52,315 nt of DNA from a virus (lineage: Duplodnaviria; Caudoviricetes). The notes beneath the pieces were generated by a model. It was not told the DNA's origin. It saw only the letters and a program-made list of their open reading frames with translations, and did no database searches. Below are positions 1,695-39,462 of the stretch, in pieces. The DNA lies in the IMG/VR virus record IMGVR_UViG_3300023435_000020, positions 1 through 52,315 of that record, one strand, 5' to 3'. Within the stretch, counting starts at the first letter, position 1. Every line of letters starts with the position of its first letter. The position numbers were made by a program, and so were the translations under genes.

Positions 1695-1805
1695 GTGCAC
1701 ACTAGGGTCGTGAGCAGAATCGGGTTCGTCGCTGGTGTCGTTGTGGGAGTAACGGCACTGTGGGTGGGCATCTACGCGATCGTCGCCCACGCGTTCGCAC
1801 ACTAA
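1695..1805 (+). CDS. Small single-TM peptide (36 aa)
   Basis: AAAGGAG then GTG. Hydrophobic IGFVAGVVVGVTALWVGIYAIV. Read by hand; below the ORF-track cutoff. Confidence 0.5.
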   Translation: MHTRVVSRIGFVAGVVVGVTALWVGIYAIVAHAFAH

Positions 1806-1825
1806 CACACAAACGGGAGAATCAC

Positions 1826-4443: not shown

Positions 4444-4511
4444 GCGACTCGCAAGGGGTGCGGGACAGGACGTTTCGCGCCCCTTGAACTTCACACAAGC
4501 GGGAGCAGATT

Positions 4512-15062: not shown

Positions 15063-15084
15063 GTGTTCCTCCGTTCGTGTGTGA

Positions 15085-17576: not shown

Positions 17577-17641
17577 TTGAATCCTCCGTTTGTGTGTTTG
17601 GCACGCTTTCAAACGCGGCGCGCGCCGGGCCGAAACCGCTT

Positions 17642-18560: not shown

Positions 18561-18594
18561 ACTGATATCCTCCGTTTGTGTGTGTTCGTACTTA

Positions 18595-18888: not shown

Positions 18889-18913
18889 CGTTTCAAATCC
18901 TCCGTTTTGTGAT

Positions 18914-19400: not shown

Positions 19401-19485
19401 TGTCTTGGATCCTCCGTTTGTGTGTATTAGGGCTTGATACCCTACCCTTGCCCGTTCGGGATTCCAAACGGGCAATCGTAGACCA

Positions 19486-19944: not shown

Positions 19945-20039
19945 TATCGTGAATCCTCCGTTTGTGTGTATTAGGCATAAATGCCTGCCCTTGCCCGCAC
20001 AACCCGCTTCCACGGCATCACACGGGCATTGACAGGGAT

Positions 20040-20189: not shown

Positions 20190-20264
20190 TCAATCCTCCG
20201 TTTGTGTGTCGATAAGCTCACTTGATGCCTTGCCTGCTGTCAAGTTATGCCATACCGTGACTGA

Positions 20265-20293
20265 ATACTACCATGCTTTTGTGGTGGTGTCAA
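20265..20293 (-). promoter_or_regulatory. Sigma70-type promoter of the leftward operon
   Basis: Minus strand: TTGACA, 17 bp, TAGTAT, with extended TG. Confidence 0.8.
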
Positions 20294-24010: not shown

Positions 24011-24143
24011 TAGATGTGGGCGGCGCCCGAGTGAAGGCCCGGCGCCAAGTGCATGCGGTGGCGATACATCACCCGCGGGAACCGTTCCGGGCGTAGTAGG
24101 TTCTCCGCCGCCCACTGGGGTTTGTTGGAGACGGGAGGTTGCG

Positions 24144-25849: not shown

Positions 25850-25853
25850 TGTA

Positions 25854-27310: not shown

Positions 27311-27533
27311 TTGGTTCGTGGTGGGAGTGGTTGTTGGCATTGTGCTGGTTGTGCTGGTGGGGTCGAAGTGTCGCGCGACAGGGGGCGGCTATGAGGCGAC
27401 TGGCACTGTAGACAGAGATAATCCGCCGACTGGCGGAACGGCCGCGATGGAGCCTCGGTACGGATATCAGCCGCGGGGCAACGGCACTAGCGAGGGGCAG
27501 AATCCGCCGACTGGCGGGTCGAATGTGACATAG
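27300..27533 (+). CDS. Small membrane-anchored protein with duplicated NPPTGG repeat
   Basis: N-terminal TM. AATCCGCCGACTGGCGG occurs at 27420-27436 and 27501-27517. Confidence 0.65.
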   Translation: MMIDWFVVGVVVGIVLVVLVGSKCRATGGGYEATGTVDRDNPPTGGTAAMEPRYGYQPRGNGTSEGQNPPTGGSNVT

Positions 27534-27543
27534 AGGTTTAGTA

Positions 27544-28521
27544 GTGATTATAGTTCAGACCCCATTGCGGATCAGTTTCGCCGGCGGCGGGACGGATTTC
27601 AAGGAGTTCTACCGAGAAACACACGGGATGGTTGTCTCGACGGCGATCGACAAGTATGTCTTCGTGGTTGTCAAGGAACGGTTTGACGACAAGATCCGGG
27701 TGAGCTACACGAAGACCGAGATTGTCGATGAGGTGGACGAGATCCAGCATGATCTCGTGCGCGAGGCTCTTCGATTGGTTGGCGTGGACAAGGGGATCGA
27801 GATTGTAACGCTGGCCGACATCTCGTCGGAGGGCTCCGGACTGGGGTCGTCGAGCGCACTCACGGTCGGGCTCCTGAACGCCCTATACGCACACAGGGGG
27901 ATAAGTGTATCGACCGAGGCGGTTGCGCGGGAAGCGTGTGAGATCGAGATAGAAATCCTCGGGAAGCCGATCGGTAAACAGGATCAGTATATCGCGGCCT
28001 ACGGCGGGTTGAGATCGTTCACGTTTATCGGAAACGGCACGGTAGAGACTGAGCCCATCAAGCTGAACCAAGCGGCACAACAGAATCTATGCGATAGCCT
28101 GATGCTGTTCTATACTGGCGTAACCCGTCAGTCGGCGTCCATACTTGGCGAACAGAGAGCGATGGTCGGCGGGAACATGTCGGCACTCAAGGCGATCCGG
28201 CAACAGGCTCGTGCGGCAGCCTGGGAGCTCGCGACCGGCAGGGTTGAGGATCTGGGTCACATCCTGGCGACGGGGTGGTTGCACAAGAAGACGCTTGCAA
28301 GCGGGATCACAAACCCGCAGATAGACGAGATGTATGATCGTGCAATGTGTGTGGGCGCCGTTGGCGGCAAGATAACAGGGGCGGGCGGTGGCGGATTCTT
28401 TCTTGTGGTCGCCCCGCCGGAGAGACGGGCGGCGGTGCGGGAGGAACTGGCGGAGCTTACGGAGTTGCCGATACGGATCGGATGCGACGGGTCGAAGATC
28501 ATATTCAACGGAAGACGATAG
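27544..28521 (+). CDS. GHMP sugar kinase, HddA-like (D-glycero-alpha-D-manno-heptose-7-phosphate kinase family)
   Basis: TPLRISFAGGGTD, GSGLGSSS, IGKQDQY, GGKITGAGGGGF. Confidence 0.88.
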   Translation: MIIVQTPLRISFAGGGTDFKEFYRETHGMVVSTAIDKYVFVVVKERFDDKIRVSYTKTEIVDEVDEIQHDLVREALRLVGVDKGIEIVTLADISSEGSGLGSSSALTVGLLNALYAHRGISVSTEAVAREACEIEIEILGKPIGKQDQYIAAYGGLRSFTFIGNGTVETEPIKLNQAAQQNLCDSLMLFYTGVTRQSASILGEQRAMVGGNMSALKAIRQQARAAAWELATGRVEDLGHILATGWLHKKTLASGITNPQIDEMYDRAMCVGAVGGKITGAGGGGFFLVVAPPERRAAVREELAELTELPIRIGCDGSKIIFNGRR

Positions 28522-28631
28522 ATAGGTTTGCCGTCCGGGGTTCCCCGTTAATATCCTCCTGATTCCTTTCAAGTCCAGGCAGGACACGGGACTCATCAGG
28601 CTCCGGACGGCACTTCCAAAGCGAGGTGCTT

Positions 28632-28967
28632 ATGAAGCCCAGTAAGATCGGACACCAGACGGACATTGTGAGGCCATATATAGAGGCTGTCACGAGATGT
28701 GGGACCGTAGCGGCCTTGATCGAGGAGATCGAGGCCAATTGGAGTGAGCTGTGCCCCGATGCGCTCGAGCACGCCAAGACGCTGACCGACAAGGATTGGC
28801 AGTATGCGGTGAAGAACAAAGGCCGCAATGCCTCAGCCAAGCGTGTTGTGGATATCGCCGGCAAGGTTCTGATGCCCGAACAACTGCTCAAGGTGGGACT
28901 AATCGCAACTCAGTTCAAGGTGCCAGACGGATGCGCGTATATACGGATTCACGAGTGCGCCGAATGA
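28632..28967 (+). CDS. Hypothetical protein
   Basis: GAGG SD; ATGA overlap with the methyltransferase. Confidence 0.6.
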   Translation: MKPSKIGHQTDIVRPYIEAVTRCGTVAALIEEIEANWSELCPDALEHAKTLTDKDWQYAVKNKGRNASAKRVVDIAGKVLMPEQLLKVGLIATQFKVPDGCAYIRIHECAE

Positions 28968-30358
28968 CGCCTTACTACGAGGGACATGGGGTCACGCTCT
29001 ATCACGGAGATGCGCGGGAGGTGCTTTCGGCGCTGCCGGACGCATGTGCGCACTGCGCGGTGACATCCCCACCCTACTGGGGCTTGAGAGATTATTCGAC
29101 CGACGGTCAACTCGGTTTGGAGAAGACCCCGGATGAGTTTGTCGGCAATCTGGTGGGAGTGTTCGGTGAGTTGCGACGGGTCCTGCGACCCGAAGGCACG
29201 TTCTGGCTGAACCTCGGTGAGACTTATGCAACGGGCGCGGGAAAAGTCGGGGACTGCCCGGGCGGAGGCGAACAGGGCGAGCGCTGGGCTGGATTTCGTG
29301 GGGTCAACGAACCGAGCTCGAAGCGGGTGAAGTATAAGACGGCGGCCGTCGGCCCGACGATGCAGCCGAACCGGATGCCGATCGAGGGATTGAAACCGAA
29401 GGACATGTGCATGATCCCCGCGCGGGTCGCGATTGCCCTTCAGGAAAACGGCTGGTGGGTCCGGAGCGAGATAAGCTGGTGCAAACGCGTGCCGATGTGT
29501 GAATCCGTCGAGGATCGACCAACGAACGCAGTCGAGAAGATCTATCTGTTGGCGCAGTCGAAAGACTACTACTACGACCGCTATGCGGTGATGGAGTCCG
29601 CGCAAGACTGGGGCAAGCGGGACAGATCGGCGTATCGTAACGGCACGCATGATCTCAAACTCAAACAGCACGGGATGAGCAACTGCGACTTCGCGGAAAC
29701 CGGCCGGAACATGCGGAACTACTGGGTTCTGAAGCCGGGATATGAGCAGTATGCGTTCTGTGGGCACTGCCGGAAGCTGTTTGTCGGGCGCGCGTATCAC
29801 AAGATCCCAACGAGGATCATCGACGGCGAAAAGGTGCGGGTCTGCCCATTGTGCGATTCGAACGAGTGGATAGATCACTTCGCGACGTTCCCGCGGGAAG
29901 TGCCGAGGCGGGCGATCCGGGCGGGCACGAGTTGGATGGGATGCTGCTTCGAGTGCGAGTCGCCCCTGGAACGGGTTGTAGAGAAAGGCGGAAAGGTGAT
30001 TGCCTGGGGCAAGGCTTGCGGGGGCGGGAAGACGGCTTCATATCACGGTTCGGGGCGTAAGGACTATGTGGGCGCGAAAGTGCAGAACCCCAGCGATGTG
30101 AAAGCTCGTGTGCTCGAGGGGATGCGGGAAGTCGAGACTGTCGACTGGAAGCGGACGTGCAAGTGCGAGACTGACAAGATCCGATCGTGCGTGGTGATCG
30201 ATCCGTTCCACGGGAGCGGACAAACGATGCTCGTGGCGATCGACGAGGGTCGCAGGTATATCGGGGTCGACATCAACCGGGACTATCTGGATATGAGCAT
30301 CGCGAGGCTGGAAGAGGCCGTTTCGCAGGTGAAGTTGCCAATGGAGGTGGGGGTGTAA
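28964..30358 (+). CDS. N4-cytosine/N6-adenine DNA methyltransferase (beta class) with Cys-rich insertions
   Basis: GDAREVL, VTSPPYWGLRDY, HFATFP, DPFHGSGQT. Confidence 0.9.
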   Translation: MTPYYEGHGVTLYHGDAREVLSALPDACAHCAVTSPPYWGLRDYSTDGQLGLEKTPDEFVGNLVGVFGELRRVLRPEGTFWLNLGETYATGAGKVGDCPGGGEQGERWAGFRGVNEPSSKRVKYKTAAVGPTMQPNRMPIEGLKPKDMCMIPARVAIALQENGWWVRSEISWCKRVPMCESVEDRPTNAVEKIYLLAQSKDYYYDRYAVMESAQDWGKRDRSAYRNGTHDLKLKQHGMSNCDFAETGRNMRNYWVLKPGYEQYAFCGHCRKLFVGRAYHKIPTRIIDGEKVRVCPLCDSNEWIDHFATFPREVPRRAIRAGTSWMGCCFECESPLERVVEKGGKVIAWGKACGGGKTASYHGSGRKDYVGAKVQNPSDVKARVLEGMREVETVDWKRTCKCETDKIRSCVVIDPFHGSGQTMLVAIDEGRRYIGVDINRDYLDMSIARLEEAVSQVKLPMEVGV

Positions 30359-30906
30359 TGGCCGTCGTGCGCAACAAGAGCCAGATGTATGAACTTTTGC
30401 GTGCCGACAAGTTCGGCAACCATTTCCCATGGGTGAGTTACGAAGAGTGGCTACATGAGCTGCATGAGGATGCGGAGTACTCGCTACGTTTCGGACTGCA
30501 ACTGAACGCGCCTTGGGAATACCACCTGTCTTATCACAAGGCTTTGGTTGCCGCGAACTACAACACCTATGGCTGCGCCAAATCGCAGATCAGTGTGGTC
30601 ACGATGCCTATCGGCATACAGCCCGTAATCAACGCGGAGGTGCAGTGGTCTGAAATAGGCGTAGAGCTGCACTACTCGACAGTGCAGGATGTGATGAGAC
30701 GGTCGTTGGCCAGGGGCGGCAGGACTGTTGCCGGCATTGTGTCGGTAGAGATCATGCGGCATTATTGCGACCCGTGCAGCTACGACGACATCCGGGCGTT
30801 ACTGAGTGAATACGACGGATCGGTGATCGAGTTCACCGTGTTCGACCGCGATGTAGGTGTGTTTCCGCATCGCAACACGATTATCTGGGAAGTGCGGAAC
30901 TACTGA
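30358..30906 (+). CDS. Hypothetical phage protein
   Basis: TAATG coupling. C-terminal VIEFTVFD...NTIIWEVRNY. Confidence 0.7.
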   Translation: MAVVRNKSQMYELLRADKFGNHFPWVSYEEWLHELHEDAEYSLRFGLQLNAPWEYHLSYHKALVAANYNTYGCAKSQISVVTMPIGIQPVINAEVQWSEIGVELHYSTVQDVMRRSLARGGRTVAGIVSVEIMRHYCDPCSYDDIRALLSEYDGSVIEFTVFDRDVGVFPHRNTIIWEVRNY

Positions 30907-30919
30907 TGGAGGTGGGGGT

Positions 30920-31399
30920 TTGAGTCGATACGCAGCGGACACGGAAGTGAGCGTCGACAAGTCGCGGGCGGAGATCGAGAGGATATTGCAGAGATACGGA
31001 TCTCCGGAGGATGGGTTTGCCTACAGACGGAAGGGCAATCGCGCTTCGACCGAGTTTGAGTTCCGCGACATCACGTTTCGGCTCGTGCTTCCCCTGCCCG
31101 ACCCCAATGCGGAGAAGTTCCAGTGGACACCATCCAGGCGCAAGAAGCGAACCGACGAGGGCGCTCAAGAGGCGTGGGAGCAAGCGTGTAAGCAATCCTG
31201 GCGGGCGCTCGCGCTCGTGGTCAAGGCGAAGCTGGAAGCTGTTGAGTCGGGCATAGCGACATTCGGCGATGAGTTTCTGGCGTATCGTGTGTTGCCGAAC
31301 GGATTGACGGTCAGCGAGGAGATCGGGCCGAAACTGGATGGGTTACCGTCGGGCGGGACTATGTTGGCACTGTTGCCGAAGTTTGAGGTGAAAACTTGA
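30920..31399 (+). CDS. Conserved hypothetical phage protein
   Basis: YAADTEVSVDKSRAEIE...WRALALVVKAKLEAVESGI..F..EFLA; GGAGG SD. Confidence 0.75.
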   Translation: MSRYAADTEVSVDKSRAEIERILQRYGSPEDGFAYRRKGNRASTEFEFRDITFRLVLPLPDPNAEKFQWTPSRRKKRTDEGAQEAWEQACKQSWRALALVVKAKLEAVESGIATFGDEFLAYRVLPNGLTVSEEIGPKLDGLPSGGTMLALLPKFEVKT

Positions 31400-32490
31400 G
31401 CAAGAGCAAGATCGAGTGGGTATTGAACCCAGACGGAACACTAGGGGTCGGTTGGCCGGTCGTAACGGGCTGCACGAAATGCAGTCCCGGTTGCCAGAGG
31501 TGTTTTGCCGCGAAACTGGCAGCCACGCGGCTCAGGAACCATCCGCACTACGCGGGACTTGCCGTGCGTGACGGCGACACCTACAACTGGACGGGCGAGG
31601 TGCGCTGTAACGAAGACGAGCTGGACAAGCCGCTGCGTTGGCGCAAACCGCGCACGGTGTTTGTCTCCCCGACCGGCGATCTGTTCCACGAGGATGTGCC
31701 GGACGATTTCATTGATAGGGCGTTGGCTATCGCGGCGCTCTGCTCACGACACACATTCCTGCTGCTTACGAAGCGAGCAGAGCGGCAACGCGATCACATG
31801 AAGCGGGTCGGGTATGTCGACGGGCGAGCAAAGCAGATTGCGCGGCAGATGGGCAATCCAATACCGTCAGGCATGGTGCTGCAATGGCCGCTTCCAAACG
31901 TTGTGCCGATGGTCACTGCCTGCAACCAGAAAGAGGTCAACGAAAATGTGCCGATCCTGCTGGATACCCCGGCGGTAACCAGAGGTGTCTCGATAGAGCC
32001 GATGTTGGGGCCGGTTGATTTGACCGAGATTCGCAACCCGAATCATTTCCCCGGCTGCATGTATACCGACGCGTTGCGCGGGCGCGATGTTCACGAGGAT
32101 GATGATTACCTCGCGACTGCCAATGAACGCCTCGACTGGGTGATCTGTGGCGGCGAAACTGGCCCCGGCGCGCGACCTATGCACCCGGACTGGGCGAGGA
32201 GCCTGAGAGATCAGTGCCAAGATGCGTCCGTGCCGTTCTTTTTCAAGCAGTGGGGGGAGTGGATGCCGGTCGCTGGCGGCGGCGTCGGAATGATATCCAA
32301 CAATGGAGGCAGTAAGCAGAGGCACACGTTTACGCGATGGGATGGTTCTGCGTTCGTGGTGAACGACCCCGAGCGTGTCGGCGAGTACCCGCATGACATG
32401 TACCGCGTCGGCAAGAAGCGCGCCGGTCATCTCCTCGACGGGCGCGAGCACAGGGAAAGGCCGGAGGTGGAAACCGATGAGCTGGGGTGA
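31396..32490 (+). CDS. Phage Gp37/Gp68 (DUF5131) radical-SAM-like protein
   Basis: SKIEW, GCTKCSPGCQRCFA, DLFHE, LTKR, SIEPML, WVICGGETG, PFFFKQWG. Confidence 0.9.
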   Translation: MSKSKIEWVLNPDGTLGVGWPVVTGCTKCSPGCQRCFAAKLAATRLRNHPHYAGLAVRDGDTYNWTGEVRCNEDELDKPLRWRKPRTVFVSPTGDLFHEDVPDDFIDRALAIAALCSRHTFLLLTKRAERQRDHMKRVGYVDGRAKQIARQMGNPIPSGMVLQWPLPNVVPMVTACNQKEVNENVPILLDTPAVTRGVSIEPMLGPVDLTEIRNPNHFPGCMYTDALRGRDVHEDDDYLATANERLDWVICGGETGPGARPMHPDWARSLRDQCQDASVPFFFKQWGEWMPVAGGGVGMISNNGGSKQRHTFTRWDGSAFVVNDPERVGEYPHDMYRVGKKRAGHLLDGREHRERPEVETDELG

Positions 32491-32638
32491 GCGGAGCTGC
32501 ACGCACTATGCGGACGATACATACCCGTGCCAACCGGCATTTAACACCTGTAATGTGGACTGCCCGCACTACGAGCCTAACGGGAAGCCGCCGGACTCAC
32601 GATCACTGAAAGAGGCAGAGGAGACACCCGATGAGTGA
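32477..32638 (+). CDS. Small Cys-rich protein
   Basis: GGAGG SD, four Cys, overlaps both neighbours. Confidence 0.5.
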   Translation: MSWGERSCTHYADDTYPCQPAFNTCNVDCPHYEPNGKPPDSRSLKEAEETPDE

Positions 32639-33062
32639 CGAATGTCCGGAAGACACTACCATTCTCATCTCGCGTGGGTGCGTGGAAGTGCATTGGCTGG
32701 ATATTGCTAATGAGATATGCAACCAGGCCCGTGGTCCATCATCACTGATAGGTGGCCCTGAGTTTTGCAGATCGTGTAGGCGCAGTAACGATTGCCCACT
32801 AGCGCGATACCGGGAACTGGTAGAGTACGCACAAGGCAGTCTGCAACGGCAATATAATGATGGTTTTGAAACCCCGCCATCGGCATTAGATCATTTGCAT
32901 AAAGCACTCTATTATGCCTGTGTCGATGCAAAGGAGCAGCACATTCTGATGGCGGTGGCCTCAGAATTGGCGTCCAAGTGGAGAGAATACATAGAACTCG
33001 AGATACTGAACGGATTGCTGGACACTGGATTTCGCAATGAAGCACAAGATCATCTACGCTGA
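32631..33062 (+). CDS. Hypothetical protein
   Basis: GAGGAG SD; C...CxxC...C motif. Confidence 0.6.
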   Translation: MSDECPEDTTILISRGCVEVHWLDIANEICNQARGPSSLIGGPEFCRSCRRSNDCPLARYRELVEYAQGSLQRQYNDGFETPPSALDHLHKALYYACVDAKEQHILMAVASELASKWREYIELEILNGLLDTGFRNEAQDHLR

Positions 33063-33612
33063 TCCGCCGTGGTGGTATAACAACCGCCGGATGTCCGGGA
33101 AACGGACTCGGTTCGGCGGCGGGGCATGCGCGCACTATAAGCTGATGCGCGATAAAGAGATCGTCGGGATGGGAGAGTTTGTGCAGTCGATCGCGGACGA
33201 GAACTGTGCGCTTTTCCTCTGGACGACGTGCCCGCGGCTGGATGTCGGCATACGCGTGATCGAAGCGTGGGGGTTTCGTTACTGCACCGTTGCGTTCCAT
33301 TGGGTGAAGACGCGGCCGAACGGACTGCCGATATTCGGGCCTGGCTACTACACTTCGAGCAACGCCGAACTCTGCCTGCTCGGGGTCAAGGGATCGATGC
33401 CGCCCGAGAACAAGATGGTGCCGTCGCTTGTGATGTATCCGCGATCGCAACACTCGGAGAAGCCGGCGGTCGTGCGGGAGCGAATCGAGAAGATGTATGG
33501 CGATGTGCCGCGGATCGAACTGTTTGCGCGGCACCGGGTCGCCGGCTGGGAAGCCTGGGGAGATCAAGTGGGACAACTACCCGAGACTACGCCAATGCTG
33601 GCGATGCAGTGA
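33037..33612 (+). CDS. MT-A70-family adenine methyltransferase
   Basis: IIYADPPW, LFLW, AWGFRY, HSEKP, RIELFAR, GWEAWG. Confidence 0.9.
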   Translation: MKHKIIYADPPWWYNNRRMSGKRTRFGGGACAHYKLMRDKEIVGMGEFVQSIADENCALFLWTTCPRLDVGIRVIEAWGFRYCTVAFHWVKTRPNGLPIFGPGYYTSSNAELCLLGVKGSMPPENKMVPSLVMYPRSQHSEKPAVVRERIEKMYGDVPRIELFARHRVAGWEAWGDQVGQLPETTPMLAMQ

Positions 33613-33619
33613 GGTTACG

Positions 33620-33811
33620 ATGAACGAGGTTGTGGAGCGCGTGGATGCGCTTGAAACGGATGTAGCGGCGCTGAAGAAGGCGGTCGGCACTCGGACTTGC
33701 CCGGTCTGCGGCCGGGCGGTTTCCGGGCGCGTGGACAAGAAATACTGCGGATCTGGATGTAAGTCGAAGGCTTATAGGAGGAGACACATAGCAGGAGGCG
33801 AGGATGTCTGA
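33620..33811 (+). CDS. Small treble-clef-type zinc-finger protein
   Basis: CPVCG...KKYCGSGCKSKAYR. Confidence 0.65.
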   Translation: MNEVVERVDALETDVAALKKAVGTRTCPVCGRAVSGRVDKKYCGSGCKSKAYRRRHIAGGEDV

Positions 33812-34553
33812 GAATGCGATAGTTGAAAACGAAGAGGCGCAGACCCATGTGCCCGCGAGCACAGGTACCGCATGGAGCAAGATTTCGTGCCGGCGGACCG
33901 GGTTGGTGGTCAAGAAGAAACTCGATTTCGATGAATGGGAGCAGGTCGGGACCTACATGCGTGAGATGAACCGCGCGATCGGGTTTGTGCTTGGTGATTG
34001 GCTGAACTGGGGTGAGGAGACGTATGGAGAGAAGTATTCCCAGGCGTTCGATGGCGACAGCACTGAGTTTGAGTATCAGACGCTACGGAACTACGCCTGG
34101 GTGTGCGCCGCGATCCCGATGAAGAGACGCAGGGAAAGCCTCAGTTTCAGTCATCACATGGAAGTGGCGGCGTGCGAACCCGATCAGCAGGATGCGTTGC
34201 TGACGCAGGCAGAGGAAGAGGGCTGGAACACGAAAGAGCTTCGGCGCGCGGTTTCGGACCTGCGTGTTTCCGAAGGGCAAAAGGCTCTACCCGCGGCGAA
34301 GTTCGATGAGATCAAGCAGGTGTGGGAGAACTACGGTCTGCCGATGCCCAAAGTGCCCAACGATGGTTGCCTGGCGCCCGTCGCGAAGGCGATCCGGAAA
34401 CTGGAGTCCAATGCGATTCCGATCGGGCATGTGCCGATAAGAAATGAGCATATCAGCACACTGATCGAGCGGTGCAAGGAATACCCGTTCTCGGACTGCG
34501 ATGAGTGCGAGCACAAAGCTGAGTGCGAGAGGGCGAATGGCGATGAGGTATAA
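33804..34553 (+). CDS. LmbU-like DNA-binding protein
   Basis: LGDWLNWGE..YGEKY, YQTLRNYAWV, LSFSHH.EVA, WNTKELR. Confidence 0.75.
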   Translation: MSENAIVENEEAQTHVPASTGTAWSKISCRRTGLVVKKKLDFDEWEQVGTYMREMNRAIGFVLGDWLNWGEETYGEKYSQAFDGDSTEFEYQTLRNYAWVCAAIPMKRRRESLSFSHHMEVAACEPDQQDALLTQAEEEGWNTKELRRAVSDLRVSEGQKALPAAKFDEIKQVWENYGLPMPKVPNDGCLAPVAKAIRKLESNAIPIGHVPIRNEHISTLIERCKEYPFSDCDECEHKAECERANGDEV

Positions 34554-35322
34554 GCATCGCCATAGAGTCACAACTGCCGTGGTTCCCGCGGCCGGGCGTG
34601 GAACCAGGTTGGCATCGCTGTTGGAACCGGGCAAGGCCAAGGAAATGCTGCCGTTGGGCGGAAAGCCGGTTATCGAACACGTGATGGAAGAGCTTGCCGC
34701 GTCTGGGATTCATGATGTCCTGTTGGTGCTATCGCGCGACAAGATAGACGGGTTCCGCGAGCGCTTCGGCAGGTCGGTGCTTGGAATGACGGTTGGCTAT
34801 ATTCTTCAGCGGAAGCAGAACGGGCTGGCGGGCGCTATCTACCGCGCGAAGGAGTATGTTGGCAAGGTAGAGCCGTTTGCCGTGGCGCTGGGTGACACGA
34901 TAATCGACACGGGTCGGGACTACGTGCCGTTGCGCCGGATGATAGATGTGTCCGCAAGTGTGTTCGGCATGGTGATGGTCGAAAAGAAGCCGCGCGAGGA
35001 ACTGTTTCGCTATGGCGTCGTGAAGCCGAACTTGGAGACGTTCCCGGTGTTTCGGGCCGAAGCGATTGTCGAGAAGCCAGATCCCGCGAACGCCCCGAGC
35101 GACTTTGCGATCGCCGGACGCTATGTGTTTGACCCATCCGTTTTCGATTATATCGAACGCACCGCGCCCGGGGCAGGCGGCGAGCGCCAGATCACGGATA
35201 CAATCGGCCTGATGCTGCAAGACAAGCGGGATATCTGGTGCCTGCCGATAGACAGAAACGAATCGATGATTGACATCGGGACAGTAGAGGCTTACGAAGA
35301 GGCCAAACGGAGGTTTCCATGA
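34543..35322 (+). CDS. galU: Sugar-1-phosphate nucleotidyltransferase, GalU-like
   Basis: AVVPAAGRGTRL, KEMLP, GLAGAI, LGD, YGVV, IVEKP, GRYV, QITD, DIG. Confidence 0.85.
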   Translation: MRYKHRHRVTTAVVPAAGRGTRLASLLEPGKAKEMLPLGGKPVIEHVMEELAASGIHDVLLVLSRDKIDGFRERFGRSVLGMTVGYILQRKQNGLAGAIYRAKEYVGKVEPFAVALGDTIIDTGRDYVPLRRMIDVSASVFGMVMVEKKPREELFRYGVVKPNLETFPVFRAEAIVEKPDPANAPSDFAIAGRYVFDPSVFDYIERTAPGAGGERQITDTIGLMLQDKRDIWCLPIDRNESMIDIGTVEAYEEAKRRFP

Positions 35323-36089
35323 CCGATCTTGAGAAACGACAGATGATGGTTCCGCTGGGGCCGTGGTTGGAGTTATGCAAGAATGCGGGTATTCCGCATG
35401 TGTCCGCGATGTTCTCGCCCGAGTTTCCGATCGAGCAGATATACATAGCGTTGAATGGCCCGGGTTCCGGTCCTACGCGTCAGTTGGATGCGGCGTTCAG
35501 GTGGTATGAGTCCGAAAAGCTCAAACGACTCAAAGCGGGACACAGGTTCAGCGCGAGATGGGAGTGCTGCTCGAACTCGATGGCGAAGGAAGCAGCGGGG
35601 AATGGCTGGGAGTGGGATTCTGACTACTATGAGCTTACCTGTGATGATTCGCGCGTAATGGATTGTACCGCGGGCAACACTACTACGACGCGGCTTTGCG
35701 TGAGGCCGTGGATGGATACTCCGCGAGCTGACGATTATCCCGTAGAGTGTCGGGTGTTTGTAGACTATAGGTACGGGATCATTGGCATTAGTAACTACTA
35801 CCCGCAACGGCCGCTCACGTTTCAGGATTGCGACGGACAGGTGCTCGCCTGGATGCACCTCGTGTTACAGCGCACGCGGCGGCTCGCGGATGCTGTAAGG
35901 GACAAGCACGGCGAGGGCATGGGTTTCACTGCCGATTGGTTGTTGACCGGCGTTTCCGACTGTGTTTTCCTGGAGGGTGGCCCGCCGCACGAGGAATCAG
36001 GGCACGTATCGGCGCACCCGTGTTGCTTTGCGCCGGGGAAGATCGAAGGGATAGCGCTGGCGCGGAGAGAAGGGGCGTTGGAGTATTGA
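35319..36089 (+). CDS. Hypothetical protein, possibly an ATP-grasp (CDC123/R2K-like) enzyme
   Basis: VRPW...ECRVFV...GISNYY...FTADW...VFLEG spacing resembles the ATP-grasp core. Confidence 0.45.
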   Translation: MTDLEKRQMMVPLGPWLELCKNAGIPHVSAMFSPEFPIEQIYIALNGPGSGPTRQLDAAFRWYESEKLKRLKAGHRFSARWECCSNSMAKEAAGNGWEWDSDYYELTCDDSRVMDCTAGNTTTTRLCVRPWMDTPRADDYPVECRVFVDYRYGIIGISNYYPQRPLTFQDCDGQVLAWMHLVLQRTRRLADAVRDKHGEGMGFTADWLLTGVSDCVFLEGGPPHEESGHVSAHPCCFAPGKIEGIALARREGALEY

Positions 36090-36115
36090 CAAATGACCCG
36101 GATTTGGTGTATGAT
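36086..36115 (+). promoter_or_regulatory. Sigma70-type promoter
   Basis: TTGACA (36086-36091), 18 bp, TATGAT (36110-36115). Confidence 0.75.
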
Positions 36116-36121
36116 ATTGGC

Positions 36122-36210
36122 GGATGAACCCCTCAACTCCGGCGCCTTAGCCGGGAATTGTGTGAGTTCTCCGTTTGTGTGGGGGGCGGCTCGTTACCGC
36201 CCCCATTAGC
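36122..36210 (+). ncRNA. Candidate sRNA antisense to the repeated leader/RBS
   Basis: Follows the promoter: 5' hairpin, then CTCCGTTTGTGTG (36169-36181), then an 8-bp GC hairpin (36182-36204). Confidence 0.55.
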
Positions 36211-36227
36211 TTGTACGGGAGGTAACT

Positions 36228-36404
36228 ATGTCTGCCCCCGGATTCCTTGAACGTCACAACCCCTGCCCACTACACTCCACTGCTCGGAAGCGTAGGACAC
36301 AGATCCTCACCAAGAAGCGGGACGGCAAGCCCGGCACCAAGATCGCCGCCGTGTGCGCGGAATGCGGTCGTCTTCTCGATGTAACCCCCGACAAGACCCG
36401 GTAA
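36228..36404 (+). CDS. Small basic zinc-ribbon protein (58 aa)
   Basis: GGAGG SD. CPLH...CAEC. Read by hand. Confidence 0.55.
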   Translation: MSAPGFLERHNPCPLHSTARKRRTQILTKKRDGKPGTKIAAVCAECGRLLDVTPDKTR

Positions 36405-36523
36405 CTCTTTACCACTATTCCCCACTACTCTATGTTTCTTTTATGACTTTCGTCACCCTGTATCTTCGCTCCACGCTCAAAACCGGCCTCTTTACCGTGT
36501 ATATATAGGAGGCTTTGCGTGTA

Positions 36524-36742
36524 ATGGAGGAAAGATGGGTCGGCGTCGACTGCGAGGGCAACAAACTCCAGGATGGGGACACCGTGGTCGTTACGGCCGG
36601 GCCTCACGAGAGGTTGCAGGGCACATTGCGCGACCATACGTCCGATAGAGCTATTGTCCAGACGGACACACAGCGTGGTCGCGTAGTGGAATATTGCTTT
36701 CTGCGCCTGGTAGAACGCAAAGCCGGGATGATGACTCAATAA
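36524..36742 (+). CDS. KOW-motif protein
   Basis: AGGAGG SD. GDTVVVTAGPHERLQG. TAATG coupling to the small terminase. Confidence 0.6.
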   Translation: MEERWVGVDCEGNKLQDGDTVVVTAGPHERLQGTLRDHTSDRAIVQTDTQRGRVVEYCFLRLVERKAGMMTQ

Positions 36743-37452
36743 TGGATCGGCAACCCTGGGAAAGACTCGACAACGAAACCGACACCGCCTACGAAGCCTT
36801 CAGTCAATACCTCGAACTACCCAAATGCGGCAAGAGCCACGATCACGGCAAACCCGGCGGGCGCAGGTTCAAGTCTGATCTTGCGCGTCTGCGTGGGATC
36901 AAGACCCCGACGATCGAGGGCTGGTATCGCAAGTATAACTGGGTCGGACGTGCCCAAGCCTACGACAAGTTCATGTCCGCCGGCATCCAACCCATCGCCG
37001 AACTCGACGCGCGGAAGGACTTCGTGCGCGAGATCCGAGATGCGGCCAACAAGTTCCGAGTAGCGGCAGCCAAGGCACTTGACGGCGCCAAAGATATCAC
37101 GGTCGACAACGCCATAAAGCTATACAAGCTCGGGATGGACCTTGAGAAGCAGGCCGAAGAGATCGAGGCACCGGCGCTAGAGAGCAAACGTGACGAACTC
37201 AAATCCGGCATTACAAGACTTCTCGGATCTATTACCGCCCAATTGGGAGGAGATGCCCGAGGAAGCGCTCGCGGAACTATACGAGCAACTGAAAAAGAAG
37301 TATGTTTCGACATTCCGCTCGGAAGCGAAGACGGATCAACACAACCCGTTCAGGAAATACCGGAACTGCCCGGAAAAGTTTGCGAGCGAAGTGCTGGGAG
37401 TGACCTGGTGGAGCAAGCAGATCCAGTTGTGCCACCTGATCCGGGACTATGA
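36742..37452 (+). CDS. terS: Probable terminase small subunit
   Basis: PWERLDNETDTAYEAF..Y, HTH, W..RAQAYD; directly upstream of the large terminase. Confidence 0.65.
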   Translation: MDRQPWERLDNETDTAYEAFSQYLELPKCGKSHDHGKPGGRRFKSDLARLRGIKTPTIEGWYRKYNWVGRAQAYDKFMSAGIQPIAELDARKDFVREIRDAANKFRVAAAKALDGAKDITVDNAIKLYKLGMDLEKQAEEIEAPALESKRDELKSGITRLLGSITAQLGGDARGSARGTIRATEKEVCFDIPLGSEDGSTQPVQEIPELPGKVCERSAGSDLVEQADPVVPPDPGL

Positions 37453-38818
37453 TAGAGTTGCCGCAAAAGCAGGGCACTCGGTAGGGAAAACGCACGGTGT
37501 GGCGGGCGCCGTTATATGGTTTCTGCATGCATTTGATCCGGCGATAATCGTTACGACCGCTCCGTCTACCGAGCAGGTCATAAACGAGATCTGGATGGAG
37601 ATCCGCAAGCAGGCGGCGGGCGCCAAGGTGCCCTTGTTCAAGGGTCTGCTTCCGGCGAAACCTTTCTGGCGGGTGTCTCCCCACTGGTATGCGACCGGGT
37701 TTTCAACAGACAAGGGCGACCGGTTTCGTGGCAAGCACGGCCCGAACATGCTCTTCGTTTTCGATGAGGCGACCGGCATTCCTCCCTTTGTGTGGGAGGA
37801 AACCGAGAACATGTGCACCGTGCCGGGCAACAAGATCCTCGCGCTTGGCAACCCGATCAATCCCTCCGGTGACTTCTACGACGCATTCAAGTCCGGTTCC
37901 GGCTGGGCTCAACTGAAGATCAGTTGTCTCGATCACCCGAACGTCGTGCACGGCAAGCAGATATTCCCGGGTGCGGTGTCTCGCCAATGGGTCGAGAAAC
38001 GGATAGCGAAGTATTGCACGCCGATCACGGCGGCTGATGTAGATCCCGCTGTCGATTTCGAGTATCCCAAACAGAGCGGCCAATGGTATCGGCCGTCTGC
38101 TACGTTCATGTGCCGAGTTTTGGGCGAGTTTCCGCAGGAAGGCCCGGACGTCCTCATCACATTCGCGCAGGTTGTCTATGCCCGGACGCGCGCGCCGATA
38201 CCCATCGACGAACTTTCAAGCGTTGATATAGGACTGGACGTTGCCTATCAAGGCGGGGATGCCTGCGTGCTGTTTGCGCGGCGCGGCCCGTGTGTGATCG
38301 CGCGCGAGAAGTGGTATGGGCGCGACACCGAGTTTACGATCAGGCGCACGGCGGCGTTTTGCAGGAAGCTGCACATACAGGGGTATCGGGTCGGCACGGT
38401 CGCGGTCGATGCGATCGGTATTGGATCGGGCGTGGCGGCTGGACTCCAGGGACTACAGAACGACGGCGAACTCTCCGTGGGGCGGGTGCTTGCTATCCAG
38501 GTCAGCGAGAAGGCCGTCAGCGTCGAGAAATACGAGAATCAGCGCGCCGAACTCGCATTCGCTCTAGCGGAACGGTTTGCCCAAGGCAGCATCGACATGA
38601 CGCGACTTGGCGAGGCCGGGGAAGATTTCGAGAACCAGGCGCCGCTTATCAAGTGGGACTACTCCAGAAACGGACGGTATCGCATTGAATCCAAAGACAA
38701 AATCCGCGCCAGGATCGGCTTGTCTCCGGACGACTTCGACGCCATGTGTCTGTGCTTCGTCGACACGGCCGATGCGTTCGCGGAGAACTACGCCGCCGTC
38801 ATGGAGGCCGCTGCCTGA
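37190..38818 (+). CDS. terL: Terminase large subunit
   Basis: AGHSVGKT, FVFDEA, LGNP, VLGEFP, IGLDVA..GGD, VDAIGIG, SPDDFDA. Start uncertain (37190 or 37253). Confidence 0.92.
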   Translation: MTNSNPALQDFSDLLPPNWEEMPEEALAELYEQLKKKYVSTFRSEAKTDQHNPFRKYRNCPEKFASEVLGVTWWSKQIQLCHLIRDYDRVAAKAGHSVGKTHGVAGAVIWFLHAFDPAIIVTTAPSTEQVINEIWMEIRKQAAGAKVPLFKGLLPAKPFWRVSPHWYATGFSTDKGDRFRGKHGPNMLFVFDEATGIPPFVWEETENMCTVPGNKILALGNPINPSGDFYDAFKSGSGWAQLKISCLDHPNVVHGKQIFPGAVSRQWVEKRIAKYCTPITAADVDPAVDFEYPKQSGQWYRPSATFMCRVLGEFPQEGPDVLITFAQVVYARTRAPIPIDELSSVDIGLDVAYQGGDACVLFARRGPCVIAREKWYGRDTEFTIRRTAAFCRKLHIQGYRVGTVAVDAIGIGSGVAAGLQGLQNDGELSVGRVLAIQVSEKAVSVEKYENQRAELAFALAERFAQGSIDMTRLGEAGEDFENQAPLIKWDYSRNGRYRIESKDKIRARIGLSPDDFDAMCLCFVDTADAFAENYAAVMEAAA

Positions 38819-39462
38819 TGCCTGATATCGATTGGGAGAAAGTCTCGACAAATGCCGGCCAACGGGCGCTGTGGATGCGGTATTGGCAACTACGCACGCC
38901 GGAATCACGCGACCTGCTCATTATGAGCTACAAGGGTCTTGTATATAGCCGGTCCCGAAAACTGAGCGATGTGGTAAGGGCGGTTGGGTTGGAGGAGGGA
39001 GACATCACAGGGGCGGCGTGGGCTGCGCTTGTGAGCGCGGTCGATCTCTACGATCCATGCCGAGGCAAATCGTCTTTCGCGACCTACGCATGCACGCGGA
39101 TTGACGGCACAATCAAGAATTACATCCGGGACCACGGAACCCACGGGGGCAGCAACTACAGGCGGTGTCAGCGCGGTGCCGTCGATCCGCCCGAACTTGT
39201 GTCCTTCGACGCGCTACAGTTAGACGACAAACTCAGCGAAACATTCGATGTGGACGCTTGCCTTGACCGCGTTATGGTGAGCGACCTGATTGGAAAGTTG
39301 CCGGAAGACGAGGCGGAGTTGATCGAGCAGCGCTATCGGCGCAGGATGCGGTTTGTTGACATCGGGCGGATGCACAATTACACGGGAGCGTGGGCAGGCC
39401 GACGGCATGAGCAGATCATAGAAAAGATGGCACGTATGGCGGGGTGTGATGAGTCTAGTTAG
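38818..39462 (+). CDS. FliA/WhiG-like alternative sigma factor
   Basis: LWMRY...RDLLIMSYKGLV, YDP....FATYACTRIDGTIKNYIR, region-4 LPEDEAELIEQRY...FVDIG. Confidence 0.85.
   Translation: MPDIDWEKVSTNAGQRALWMRYWQLRTPESRDLLIMSYKGLVYSRSRKLSDVVRAVGLEEGDITGAAWAALVSAVDLYDPCRGKSSFATYACTRIDGTIKNYIRDHGTHGGSNYRRCQRGAVDPPELVSFDALQLDDKLSETFDVDACLDRVMVSDLIGKLPEDEAELIEQRYRRRMRFVDIGRMHNYTGAWAGRRHEQIIEKMARMAGCDESS

What the first reader, a model, noticed from the sequence alone, without database searches (positions are those of the whole stretch)
36086..36210. Promoter-driven ~85-nt RNA complementary to the shared RBS leader of the leftward operon: candidate multi-target phage sRNA
Seen in sequence: TTGACA-18-TATGAT, a 5' hairpin (CTCCGGC/GCCGGGA), then GTTCTCCGTTTGTGTG (36166-36181), then an 8-bp GC hairpin. 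The core CTCCGTTTGTGTG is a perfect 13-nt complement (16 bp with two G:U pairs) of the leader ACACACAAACGGAGGAT. That leader overlaps the SD of five genes 16-19 kb away, with variants at 18897, 15067, 1805 and 4491. On the minus strand this copy has no ATG/GTG/TTG at SD distance, so it is not simply another RBS. Established analogy: GcvB uses a G/U-rich seed to repress many mRNAs through C/A-rich leader elements. Inference: one RNA made at the head of the packaging/head block silences a whole gene class by occluding a standardised RBS. Alternative: a minus-strand hairpin+motif RNA acts as a decoy for a CsrA-like protein, since the motif contains ANGGA. Caveat: the 3' hairpin lacks a U-tract, so this may be a 5' leader of the downstream operon.
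Basis: partly seen in the sequence, partly recalled or inferred. Interest (0 to 1): 0.85.

Follow-up and report, generated by a model that had tools for sequence, protein, structure and literature searches.

The report
Inverted RBS-leader copy in packaging-operon leader
An uncultured salt-lake phage carries, in the RNA leader of its DNA-packaging operon, a backwards copy of the ribosome-binding leader shared by its early genes; the leader RNA could pair with those messages and mask them, but nothing yet shows that it does.

Summary
The 13-mer CACACAAACGGAG occurs six times, always on the minus strand (0.0015 expected). Five copies are identical 17-nt Shine-Dalgarno leaders of leftward early genes. 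The sixth (36169-36181) has no start codon. It lies 54 nt downstream of TTGACA-18-TATGAT, one of two 11/12 promoter matches in the window.

The plus-strand RNA is predicted to fold as described, leaving GUUUGUGUG unpaired. It can form 16-20 bp duplexes over the SD of nine genes, which rank 1-9 of 70 start regions.

Three points change the reading:
- The GC hairpin has no U-tract, and a real gene (ORF58, homologue in L181) starts 24 nt after it. The element is therefore more likely a 5' UTR than a discrete 85-nt sRNA.
- Similarity to the leaders continues into the spacer and hairpin (18/21), so it is an inverted copy of the phage's own cassette. Complementarity alone needs no selection.
- No relative (TerL 43-54 %) has the element or the leader. 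No RNA data or population variants were available.

Odds: functional anti-RBS antisense 0.45, inert relic 0.35. If functional, it is a new variant of known phage antisense control.

The parts
36086..36115 (+). Sigma-70-type promoter TTGACA-18-TATGAT. The -35 hexamer overlaps the TGA stop of the upstream ATP-grasp gene.
   Evidence: 11/12 matches, one of two such sites in 52 kb (0.2 expected).
36122..36227 (+). Predicted 5' leader RNA (5' UTR) of ORF58. The start site is inferred from the -10 position and was not measured.
   Evidence: Folding z-scores are -2.9 to -3.2. No Rfam family matches; the best sub-threshold hit is rli61, 16.2 bits against a cut-off of 50.
36138..36155 (+). 5' hairpin UCCGGC/GCCGGG, enclosed by a longer stem that pairs 36122-36129 with 36166-36172.
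36162..36182 (-). Orphan inverted copy of the RBS-leader cassette (CCACACAAACGGAGAACTCAC on the minus strand). On the plus-strand RNA it is the anti-leader GUGAGUUCUCCGUUUGUGUG. The exact 13-nt core is 36169-36181, and GUUUGUGUG (36173-36181) is predicted to be unpaired.
   Evidence: (D1: 18/21 to the 19949 copy).
36182..36204 (+). 8-bp all-G-C hairpin with a 7-nt loop and no U-tract. The similarity to the cassette hairpin at 19426-19441 continues into it.
   Evidence: not listed as a terminator; D2.
36228..36404 (+). ORF58, a small Cys-rich (CPxH...CxxCG) protein, with SD GGGAGG at 36217-36222.
   Evidence: BLASTP E = 5e-07 to a 57-aa ORF in relative L181.
36524..36742 (+). Small KOW-like protein, conserved directly upstream of TerS in relatives.
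   Evidence: KOW4_SPT5, below cut-off; E = 6e-05 to L017 7143-7364.
36694..37452 (+). Terminase small subunit ORF. The real start is probably the ATG at 36742.
   Evidence: phrog_6299, 2.9e-12.
37253..38818 (+). Terminase large subunit.
38818..39462 (+). Sigma-70-family factor, the last gene before the portal gene.
20193..20209 (-). Exact 17-nt leader ACACACAAACGGAGGAT before the 49-aa ORF 20040-20189.
19953..19969 (-). Exact leader before the 152-aa ORF 19486-19944. This is the copy closest to the orphan.
19409..19425 (-). Exact leader before the 129-aa ORF 19011-19400.
18567..18583 (-). Exact leader before the 184-aa ORF 18006-18560.
17581..17597 (-). Exact leader before the DnaN-like clamp gene 16077-17576.
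15066..15082 (-). Variant leader ACACACGAACGGAGGAA before the integrase gene 14160-15062.
18898..18910 (-). Variant leader ACAAAACGGAGGA before the 97-aa ORF 18595-18888.
1805..1821 (+). Variant leader ACACACAAACGGGAGAA before ORF 1826-2281.
4492..4505 (+). Variant leader CACACAAGCGGGAG before ORF 4512-5108.
20265..20293 (-). Promoter-like site TTGACA-17-TAGTAT at the head of the leftward operon.
   Evidence: 10/12.

Best explanation
The element is an orphan, inverted copy of the phage's own 'hairpin + RBS leader' intergenic cassette. It sits in the 5' leader of the transcript that starts at the near-consensus promoter 36086-36115 and encodes ORF58, a KOW-like protein, TerS, TerL and a sigma factor.

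Because the copy is inverted, the leader RNA carries the anti-leader 5'-GUGAGUUCUCCGUUUGUGUG-3'. Its 3' nine bases lie exposed between two hairpins. The most likely effect is that this exposed stretch nucleates pairing with the shared leader ACACACAAACGGAGGAU of the early and replication mRNAs. These are five exact and four variant copies, including the clamp and integrase genes. The resulting 16-20 bp duplex would cover the Shine-Dalgarno sequence. That would block ribosome entry and may expose both RNAs to a double-strand RNase.

It probably acts as part of the 5' UTR or a processed fragment of it, not as a separately terminated 85-nt sRNA.

Shown: the sequence features, the common descent with the cassette, and the thermodynamic feasibility.
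Inferred: the transcription start, the lack of termination, and any regulatory effect.
For: 1. Uniqueness. The site pairs 16 of 17 positions with the leader. It is the only site in the window with at least 15/17 apart from the leaders' own opposite strands (shuffle mean 0.1). The 13-mer is expected 0.0015 times and occurs 6 times.
2. It will be in RNA. It lies on the coding strand between co-oriented genes. It starts 54 nt downstream of one of only two 11/12 promoter matches in 52 kb. It lies upstream of ORF58, which has a homologue in L181.
3. Accessibility. GUUUGUGUG has unpaired probabilities of about 0.5-0.9 in five of the six transcript lengths tried, and lower (0.1-0.7) in the 36122-36300 transcript.
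4. Energetics. With opening costs on both RNAs, the nine leader-bearing start regions rank 1-9 of 70. Their net energies are -8.8 to -18.1 kcal/mol, against a median of +7.1. Opening the targets costs only 1.3-8.1 kcal/mol.
5. Substitution pattern. Within the 20-nt match to the 19953 leader, both differences (36166 A>G, 36168 C>U on the RNA strand) turn Watson-Crick pairs into G.U pairs. Under neutral substitution from a perfect complement, this has probability 0.01-0.02. The choice of reference copy and of boundaries was post hoc.
6. Leader conservation. Five leaders are identical over 17 nt while their flanks differ. That is more than an SD requires and fits recognition by a specific partner.
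Against: 1. Similarity to the leaders extends into the spacer (TCAC) and the neighbouring hairpin (D1 and D2). Common descent alone explains the complementarity.
2. There is no U-tract after the hairpin, so no discrete sRNA is predicted.
3. The CUCC part of the seed is paired with the RNA's own 5' end. Opening the whole 21-nt site costs 11.4 kcal/mol, and opening the 13- or 16-nt core costs 3-11 kcal/mol depending on the assumed start site.
4. The promoter is of the same sigma-70 type as the leftward early promoter, so no temporal switch is evident.
5. None of the relatives found has the element. L180 (54 % TerL), L181 (50 %) and L007/L017 (43 %) also lack this leader, so this is uninformative, not negative. 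The relative G001 has a promoter-hairpin-promoter region at the same place. That region shows only chance-level complementarity to its own genome: 12 nt at most, in coding sequence.
6. There are no expression data.
Confidence: 0.45

Rival explanations
1. Inert relic. An inverted leftover of a hairpin + RBS-leader cassette, produced by recombination or template switching at a module junction, happens to lie in the 5' UTR of the packaging operon. It has no selected role, and any pairing with early mRNAs is incidental and weak in vivo.
For: - Homology runs beyond the seed into the spacer and hairpin: 18/21 to the 19949 copy, and 73 % over 30 nt to the 19412 copy.
- The leftward operon is built of such repeated cassettes, comparable to the mobile regulatory cassettes (PeSLs) of T4-type phages (PMC2839356 and PMC4122927; search listing and abstract openings only).
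- The element is absent from all relatives found.
- The SD is degraded (GGAGG to GGAGA) and no ORF follows.
- Few intergenic gaps exist in which a relic could survive.
Against: - The 13-nt core is intact while the flanks have diverged.
- Both internal differences preserve pairing as G.U (p about 0.01-0.02, with caveats).
- A 20-bp potential duplex with an exposed toehold in a strongly promoted leader would be hard to keep neutral if both RNAs are in the cell together.
Confidence: 0.35
2. One reading: a discrete ~85-nt trans-acting sRNA, ending at the GC hairpin, that silences the leader-bearing genes. This is a sub-case of the best explanation.
For: - The architecture is promoter, 5' hairpin, single-stranded seed, then a strong 3' hairpin.
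- Short RNAs made by premature termination just downstream of phage promoters have been documented: 42 terminators lie in 5' UTRs of six Pseudomonas phages, one of them upstream of a major head gene (PMC10914365, section 20 read).
- StxS arises at the always-active late promoter of Stx phages (PMC7547250, abstract opening only).
- The relative G001 has a hairpin between two promoters at the same place.
Against: - There is no U-tract; the tail is AUUAGCUUGU, and the site is not listed by the terminator scan.
- ORF58's SD begins 13 nt after the hairpin, and no other promoter-like site for ORF58 was found between them.
- The gene upstream is an ATP-grasp enzyme, not a Q-like antiterminator.
Confidence: 0.15
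3. A purely cis-acting leader. The structured 5' UTR controls only its own operon. For example, the G-run 36181-36189 could pair alternatively with CCGCCCCC (36197-36204) or with CUGCCCCCG (36232-36240), masking or exposing the ORF58 start. Pairing could also work in the reverse direction, with abundant early mRNAs titrating the leader and changing expression of the packaging operon.
For: - The minimum-energy fold of 36122-36240 pairs the G-run with 36232-36240 and encloses the ORF58 SD and AUG. Shorter and longer transcripts prefer the 8-bp hairpin.
- In all three phages where the region was read (window, G001/L017, L180), a strong GC hairpin stands ahead of the KOW-terS-terL genes.
Against: - The alternative pairing rests on G- and C-runs that pair promiscuously, and no covariation data exist.
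- It does not explain why the linker is an exact complement of the leader.
Confidence: 0.1
4. A minus-strand or DNA-level role. The copy could be a decoy for an RNA-binding protein that recognises the leader (CsrA- or RegA-like). It could also be a DNA site, such as an operator or a packaging signal, just upstream of terS.
For: - The copy is in the same orientation as all the leaders and keeps its adjoining hairpin.
- The region just upstream of terS is a usual place for packaging sites (general knowledge, recalled).
- GGGGCGGC occurs in the hairpins of both the window and G001.
Against: - No convincing minus-strand promoter lies downstream; the best is 9/12 at 36660.
- No CsrA or Hfq homologue is in the window, and both searches had working controls. 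The RegA search found nothing but had no positive control.
- In nine copies the motif holds the SD at a fixed distance from a start codon, which marks it as an RNA-level signal.
- An 8-mer shared by two GC-rich hairpins is weak evidence.
Confidence: 0.05

Closest known systems
P1/P7 c4 and P22 sar antisense RNAs
   Same: Phage-encoded RNAs that pair with the ribosome-binding region of the phage's own mRNA and block translation. Source: review PMC12197685, passages read.
   Different: Those RNAs act on one target operon (ant). In P22 the RNA is transcribed opposite its target. Here the target would be a standardised leader on nine genes 16-34 kb away, and the antisense part sits in an mRNA leader. 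No sequence or Rfam relationship was found.
Promoter-proximal short RNAs of phage late or structural operons (StxS at PR'; 5'UTR-derived ncRNA candidates of Pseudomonas phages)
   Same: A strong promoter at the head of a structural or packaging block is followed within about 100 nt by a stable hairpin, and the short leader RNA is proposed or shown to act in trans. Sources: PMC7547250 (abstract opening) and PMC10914365 (section 20).
   Different: Those RNAs end at real terminators. In Stx phages, read-through depends on Q. Here the hairpin has no U-tract and the upstream gene is an ATP-grasp enzyme. StxS targets host mRNAs, not a class of phage genes.
GcvB-type multi-target sRNAs
   Same: A G/U-rich single-stranded seed pairs with C/A-rich elements in or beside the RBS of many mRNAs.
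   Different: GcvB is a host, Hfq-dependent sRNA with a Rho-independent terminator and short imperfect pairing. Here the pairing is 16-20 bp and nearly perfect, there is no terminator, and no Hfq is in the window. The host is unknown.
T4 RegA and RegB
   Same: Class-wide shut-down of early phage mRNAs through their translation-initiation regions. RegB cuts GGAG in early SDs, and RegA competes with ribosomes on about 30 mRNAs. Source: PMC3014915, passages read.
   Different: Those are proteins. Here the proposed agent is RNA. No RegA family match was found in the window, but that search had no positive control.
PeSL mobile regulatory cassettes of T4-type phages
   Same: Short conserved regulatory modules with a stem-loop, repeated between small early ORFs and implicated in module shuffling. 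Sources: PMC2839356 and PMC4122927, listing and abstract openings only. This is the model for the 'relic' rival.
   Different: PeSLs combine an early promoter with a terminator stem-loop. The cassettes here combine hairpin(s) with an RBS leader. No promoter was looked for inside them, and no closely related genome pair exists to show shuffling.

Membership tests
Trans-acting base-pairing sRNA (Hfq/GcvB type) | Own promoter directly upstream | tested here: met
   TTGACA-18-TATGAT, 11/12, one of two such sites in the window. This is a consensus match only; activity was not measured.
Trans-acting base-pairing sRNA (Hfq/GcvB type) | Rho-independent terminator (GC stem plus U-tail) that defines a short 3' end | tested here: not met
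   The 8-bp GC stem is followed by AUUAGCUUGU and is absent from the terminator scan.
Trans-acting base-pairing sRNA (Hfq/GcvB type) | Single-stranded seed complementary to target start regions | tested here: met
   GUUUGUGUG is unpaired in the predicted folds. The nine leader-bearing start regions rank 1-9 of 70. This is in silico only.
Trans-acting base-pairing sRNA (Hfq/GcvB type) | Seed conserved, or co-varying with its targets, in relatives | tested here: inconclusive
   The relatives found (TerL 54, 50 and 43 %) lack both the element and the leader. Four runs hold only identical sequence.
Trans-acting base-pairing sRNA (Hfq/GcvB type) | Detected transcript of defined size | not testable with these tools
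   No RNA run is listed for this DNA.
Phage antisense translational repressors (P1 c4, P22 sar) | Complementarity that covers the RBS of a phage mRNA | tested here: met
   The 16-20 bp duplex includes GGAGG.
Phage antisense translational repressors (P1 c4, P22 sar) | Sequence or structure homology to c4 or sar (Rfam) | tested here: not met
   No Rfam match at gathering score. The only sub-threshold hit is rli61, 16.2 bits, E = 3.
PR'-type leader RNA with Q antitermination (lambda 6S / StxS) | Intrinsic terminator shortly after a constitutive promoter | tested here: not met
   The hairpin is present but has no U-tract.
PR'-type leader RNA with Q antitermination (lambda 6S / StxS) | Q-like antiterminator gene immediately upstream | tested here: not met
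   The upstream ORF256 has no Pfam or PHROG match. The Atlas features and model place it among ATP-grasp (R2K/D123) proteins. Its only relative with DNA context (L085, 42 %) is not followed by such a leader.
Repeated intergenic regulatory cassette (PeSL-like) | The same short module repeated between small ORFs of one region | tested here: met
   Seven-member 21-nt family D1, plus shared hairpins in D2, D6 and D8. Context is read.
Repeated intergenic regulatory cassette (PeSL-like) | Cassettes flank insertions or deletions between closely related genomes | not testable with these tools
   No close relative was found in viral, metagenome or genome collections.
CsrA/RsmA decoy RNA | Several GGA motifs in hairpin loops, and a CsrA partner | tested here: not met
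   The minus-strand copy has one GGA and it is not in a loop. No CsrA is in the window, and the control genomes rang. Host CsrA is unknown.

The most novel reading that the evidence does not exclude
The leader RNA of the packaging/sigma operon is an RNA counterpart of T4 RegA/RegB. It carries one anti-RBS element, born by inverting the phage's own RBS cassette. Whenever that operon is transcribed, the element masks the standardised 17-nt leader of a whole class of early and replication genes, including the clamp and integrase genes. On this reading, the unusual 17-nt identity of the leaders is maintained because they must remain addressable by this single RNA.
Probability: 0.4. Interest if true: 0.75.

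Novelty: new variant of a known kind. Interest (0 to 1): 0.5.

Why it matters
If the pairing is functional, one short RNA segment would control a class of at least nine phage genes through a standardised ribosome-binding leader. Phages are known to shut off early genes as a class through proteins (T4 RegA and RegB). Their known antisense RNAs (c4, sar, OOP) each act on a single target. I did not find an RNA that addresses a whole gene class through a shared RBS in the review passages I read or in two full-text searches.

It would also show a simple evolutionary route: invert one copy of an RBS cassette inside a transcribed leader and a regulator results. The design is small enough to test in a reporter system and to reuse as a synthetic multi-gene switch.

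If the copy is only a relic, the finding is ordinary. It would be a footprint of cassette shuffling at a module boundary in an uncultured salt-lake phage.

Tried and rejected
Population variation. I laid contigs of four runs (X12, X18, X19, X22) on 17400-37399 at 80 % likeness. Pieces over the leaders and the element were identical. The only differences listed lie at 26384-26464, 27963-27978 and 32159-32228, mostly near contig ends. This gave no information on co-variation. The low word shares reflect partial cover, not divergence.

Expression. No RNA holder is listed; all 24 rows are DNA from salt-lake metagenomes. This says nothing about expression.

Relatives:
- Viral contigs by TerL found 1 locus at 43 %. 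With a two-sequence profile the search found 37 loci, the best at 54, 50 and 43 %.
- Metagenome contigs gave 3 loci, all from one concatemer-like contig of the 43 % relative.
- Genome contigs by TerL profile gave 118 pattern hits and 0 relatives.
- ORF256 in viral contigs gave 1 locus at 42 %, with different downstream genes.

Motif scans:
- The 17-mer in viral contigs gave 9 loci.
- The 16-mer in genome contigs gave 91 stretches, of which 80 were listed.
- The seed-plus-G-run 16-mer in viral contigs gave 65 loci, none similar beyond 17-20 nt by BLASTN.
- Every listed locus had one match only, about the number expected by chance for collections of this size (my estimate).

Relative G001. I looked for an anti-RBS in its promoter-hairpin-promoter region. 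The longest complement is 12 nt, in coding sequence, which is chance level. Its leftward genes share a different RBS context (...GAATCATG).

Q-like antitermination was rejected because the upstream gene looks like an ATP-grasp enzyme.

The phage DNA database gave no match for 35300-38800.

No tRNA gene was found. The host was not identified.

A TTTACCRC motif in the 36405-36520 gap gave 2 matches against 1.8 expected, so I dropped it.

The second leader-like site, inside terL (37779-37795), pairs 14/17, which is chance level.

Unconstrained duplex folding over-extends duplexes and I discarded it in favour.

Supplementary tables of PMC10914365 (the lists of 5'UTR ncRNAs) could not be seen.

Full report
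WHAT THE WINDOW IS

The window is a 52,315-bp IMG/VR viral contig with linear ends and a CheckV completeness estimate of 40 %. The same sequence is held by salt-lake metagenome runs. GC content is 58.3 %.

Gene content:
- 1.4-13.7 kb, plus strand: recombination and replication genes (PD-(D/E)XK nuclease, RecT-like, UvrD and DnaB helicases).
- 13.7-20.3 kb, minus strand: a leftward operon. It begins at a promoter-like site at 20293 with four small ORFs that match no Pfam family (one has a PHROG of unknown function), then a 184-aa ORF. Further on are a DnaN-like clamp gene and a tyrosine integrase.
- 20.7-36.1 kb, plus strand: a second clamp, a GHMP kinase, a DNA methylase, DUF5131, an NTP-transferase and ORF256.
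- From 36.2 kb, plus strand: ORF58, a KOW-like ORF, TerS, TerL, a sigma-70-family factor, a T4-type portal and a Gp23-like capsid protein.

The finding sits exactly at the junction between the last two blocks.

CHECKING THE OBSERVATION

All features are present as described.
- The promoter is TTGACA (36086-36091), 18 nt, TATGAT (36110-36115), 11 of 12 matches. In my scan of the whole window only two sites reach 11/12 (1380+ and 36086+), against 0.2 in shuffles.
- The 13-mer CACACAAACGGAG occurs six times, always on the minus strand, against 0.0015 expected.
- Five copies are an identical 17-mer, ACACACAAACGGAGGAT. Each ends 4-9 nt before an ATG that opens a real-looking ORF.
- Near-copies precede the integrase gene, ORF 18595-18888, ORF 1826-2281 and ORF 4512-5108.
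- The sixth exact 13-mer (minus 36169-36181) has no ATG, GTG or TTG within 14 nt and no ORF behind it.
- With G.U pairs allowed, 36166-36182 pairs 16 of 17 positions with the leader. It is the only such site in the window apart from the leaders' own opposite strands.
- The 8-bp all-G-C hairpin (36182-36189 with 36197-36204) is followed by ATTAGCTTGT and is not listed as terminator-like.
- A contig from a different run covers 36034-36496 without a difference.

ANATOMY OF THE RNA

The start site is taken at about 36122 by inference from the -10 hexamer. The RNA is then predicted to form:
- a 5' domain, a hairpin at 36138-36155 enclosed by a stem between 36122-36129 and 36166-36172;
- an unpaired stretch GUUUGUGUG (36173-36181);
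- the GC hairpin.

Folding z-scores are -2.9 to -3.2 against shuffles. The CUCC part of the anti-leader lies in the 5' stem. Opening the 13- or 16-nt core costs 3-11 kcal/mol depending on the assumed start site, and opening the whole 21-nt site costs 11.4 kcal/mol.

I calculated pairing with opening costs on both partners. The nine leader-bearing start regions take ranks 1-9 of 70, with net energies of -8.8 to -18.1 kcal/mol against a median of +7.1. Their leaders are themselves cheap to open, at 1.3-8.1 kcal/mol. This ranking follows largely from the complementarity. What it adds is that neither partner is buried.

WHY THE ELEMENT IS PROBABLY A 5' UTR, NOT A STAND-ALONE sRNA

- The hairpin has no U-tract.
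- 13 nt after the hairpin comes GGGAGG (36217-36222), and 5 nt later the ATG of ORF58 (36228-36404).
- ORF58 has GC3 of about 0.71 by my hand count. Its CPxH...CxxCG pattern recurs in a 57-aa ORF of relative L181 (BLASTP E = 5e-07).
- No other promoter-like site lies between the hairpin and ORF58.

Any mRNA for ORF58 that starts at P36086 therefore carries the anti-leader.

After a 119-nt lower-GC gap come a KOW-like ORF (conserved in L017), then TerS, TerL and the sigma factor.

Short RNAs made by conditional termination just after phage promoters are documented (PMC10914365, section 20; PMC7547250, abstract opening). A processed or prematurely ended species therefore cannot be excluded, but the sequence does not predict one.

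ORIGIN OF THE ELEMENT

The similarity to the leaders does not stop at the seed.
- The 21-nt family D1 puts 36162-36182 at 18/21 to the copy at 19949-19969. This includes TCAC in the SD-to-start spacer.
- Family D2 carries the similarity on into the neighbouring hairpin (GGCTxGxTACC; 73 % over 30 nt to the copy at 19412-19441).
- The intergenic regions of the leftward operon are built from such 'hairpin(s) + leader' modules, some of which share their hairpins (D6, D8).

The element is therefore a member of this cassette family. It lies in the same orientation as the others but is embedded among rightward genes, with no room for a gene of its own: only about 80 nt separate it from the stop codon of ORF256. 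Its complementarity to the leaders comes from common descent. That fact is neutral between 'regulator born by inversion' and 'relic'.

WHAT BEARS ON FUNCTION

For a function:
- The core is intact while the flanks have diverged.
- Over the 20 nt aligned to the 19953 leader, the only two differences are A>G and C>U on the RNA strand. Each converts a Watson-Crick pair into G.U. Only 10-15 % of random substitutions would do this, so two of two has p about 0.01-0.02.
- I treat that figure as modest evidence. The reference copy and the boundaries were chosen after looking. A leader of the 1826 type (GGGAGAATCAC) could equally be the ancestor.
- Five leaders are identical over 17 nt while their flanks differ, which is more than an SD requires.
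- A 16-20 bp duplex with a free 9-nt toehold in a leader driven by one of the two best promoters would be hard to keep without consequence.

Against a function:
- There is no terminator.
- Part of the seed is sequestered in the 5' stem.
- P36086 is of the same sigma-70 type as the promoters of the early operons, so the timing logic is unclear.
- There is no expression evidence.

RELATIVES

Nothing close exists in the collections searched.
- TerL relatives have 54 % (L180), 50 % (L181) and 43 % identity (L007 = G001, and L017-L019).
- No prophage relative was found.
- None of these relatives has the element, and none uses this leader.
- Motif scans of the viral and genome collections returned one match per listed locus, at about chance numbers.

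What is shared is the architecture. In G001, a TTGCCA-17-TATAAT site is followed by a 17-bp hairpin and then a TTGACA-17-CATAAT site before the KOW gene. In L180, a canonical terminator stands immediately before the RBS of the KOW gene. A strong hairpin in front of KOW-terS-terL thus looks like a lineage trait, while the anti-leader is specific to this phage.

In G001, the RNA between the two promoters shows only chance-level complementarity to its own 37.9-kb record.

Laying four runs on 17400-37399 showed only identical sequence over the relevant parts.

OTHER READINGS TESTED

- A lambda-Q-type arrangement is unlikely. ORF256 has no Pfam or PHROG match. The Atlas places it among ATP-grasp (R2K/D123) proteins by features (0.96) and by structure (TM 0.68). 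Its one relative with context is not followed by such a leader.
- A protein decoy on the minus strand lacks a promoter; the best downstream site is 9/12. It also lacks a partner in the window: no CsrA or Hfq was found with working controls, and no RegA was found but without a control.
- No Rfam family matches.

VERDICT

The element is an inverted orphan copy of the phage's RBS-leader cassette, lying in the 5' leader of the packaging/sigma operon.

My estimates:
- That this leader RNA pairs with the standardised early leaders and down-regulates them: about 0.45. Within this, the discrete sRNA form is about 0.15.
- Inert relic: about 0.35.
- Cis-only or other roles: the remainder.

Closest known systems:
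- phage antisense repressors of translation (c4, sar);
- promoter-proximal leader RNAs (StxS; 5'UTR ncRNAs);
- in logic, T4 RegA and RegB.

A class-wide RNA anti-RBS would be a new variant of these. I did not find one in two full-text searches or in the review passages read. That is a limited search.

The claim can be tested directly with leader-GFP fusions and compensatory mutations.

Noticed in passing
window 16077-17576 (-) and 24716-25849 (+): The phage carries two DnaN-like sliding-clamp genes. The leftward one has about 120 extra N-terminal residues ahead of the clamp domains.
   Followed up: no
window 36524-36742; L017 7143-7364: A ~72-aa KOW-like protein sits directly upstream of TerS in the window and in L017 (pairwise E = 6e-05; Pfam KOW4_SPT5 below cut-off). 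Its role is unknown; it could be part of the small terminase or a NusG-like factor.
   Followed up: partly
window 38818-39462: A sigma-70-family gene lies between terL and the portal gene. The 43 % relative has no match to it in the 17.5 kb examined.
   Followed up: no
window 42243-45083: The Gp23-like major-capsid domain occupies only residues 696-906 of a 946-aa ORF. The long form is shared with the relative at 37 % identity over 956 aligned positions.
   Followed up: no
L017, L018, L019 (one 179,315-nt metagenome contig): TerL occurs three times, 66,516 nt apart, in one contig. This is a concatemer-like assembly and implies a unit genome of about 66.5 kb for the relative. The 52.3-kb window may therefore be about 80 % of its genome, not the 40 % that CheckV estimates.
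   Followed up: partly
L017 6950-7140; L180 470-570: Relatives also have a strong hairpin ahead of KOW-terS-terL. In L017 it lies between two promoter-like sites. In L180 it is a canonical terminator with a T-run immediately before the KOW RBS, which suggests read-through control of the packaging operon in this lineage.
   Followed up: partly
window 27544-28521, 34501-35322, 35319-36089: A GHMP kinase, an NTP-transferase and an ATP-grasp (R2K/D123-like) protein lie in the rightward block. Together they may form a nucleotide-sugar or DNA-modification module.
   Followed up: no
window 20694-20983: Three direct repeats of about 37 nt (GTGCTACGGTTCGTTACGG...) lie in the divergent control region between the leftward and rightward operons (family D5). 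They could be an operator or iteron array.
   Followed up: no
window 15085-15108 and 18914-18937: A 24-nt hairpin, GATTGTACCGTYGGCAGTACAACC (96 % identical between the two copies), precedes exactly the two variant leaders of the integrase gene and ORF 18595-18888 (family D8).
   Followed up: no
window 37779-37795 (-): A second leader-like 17-mer, CCACACAAAGGGAGGAA, lies antisense inside terL. On the plus strand it encodes the peptide IPPFVW. It pairs only 14/17 with the leader, which is chance level.
   Followed up: yes
window 36181-36189, 36197-36204 and 36232-36240: One G-run can pair with either of two C-runs. The second C-run lies just after the ORF58 start codon, and the minimum-energy fold switches between the two with transcript length.
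   Followed up: partly
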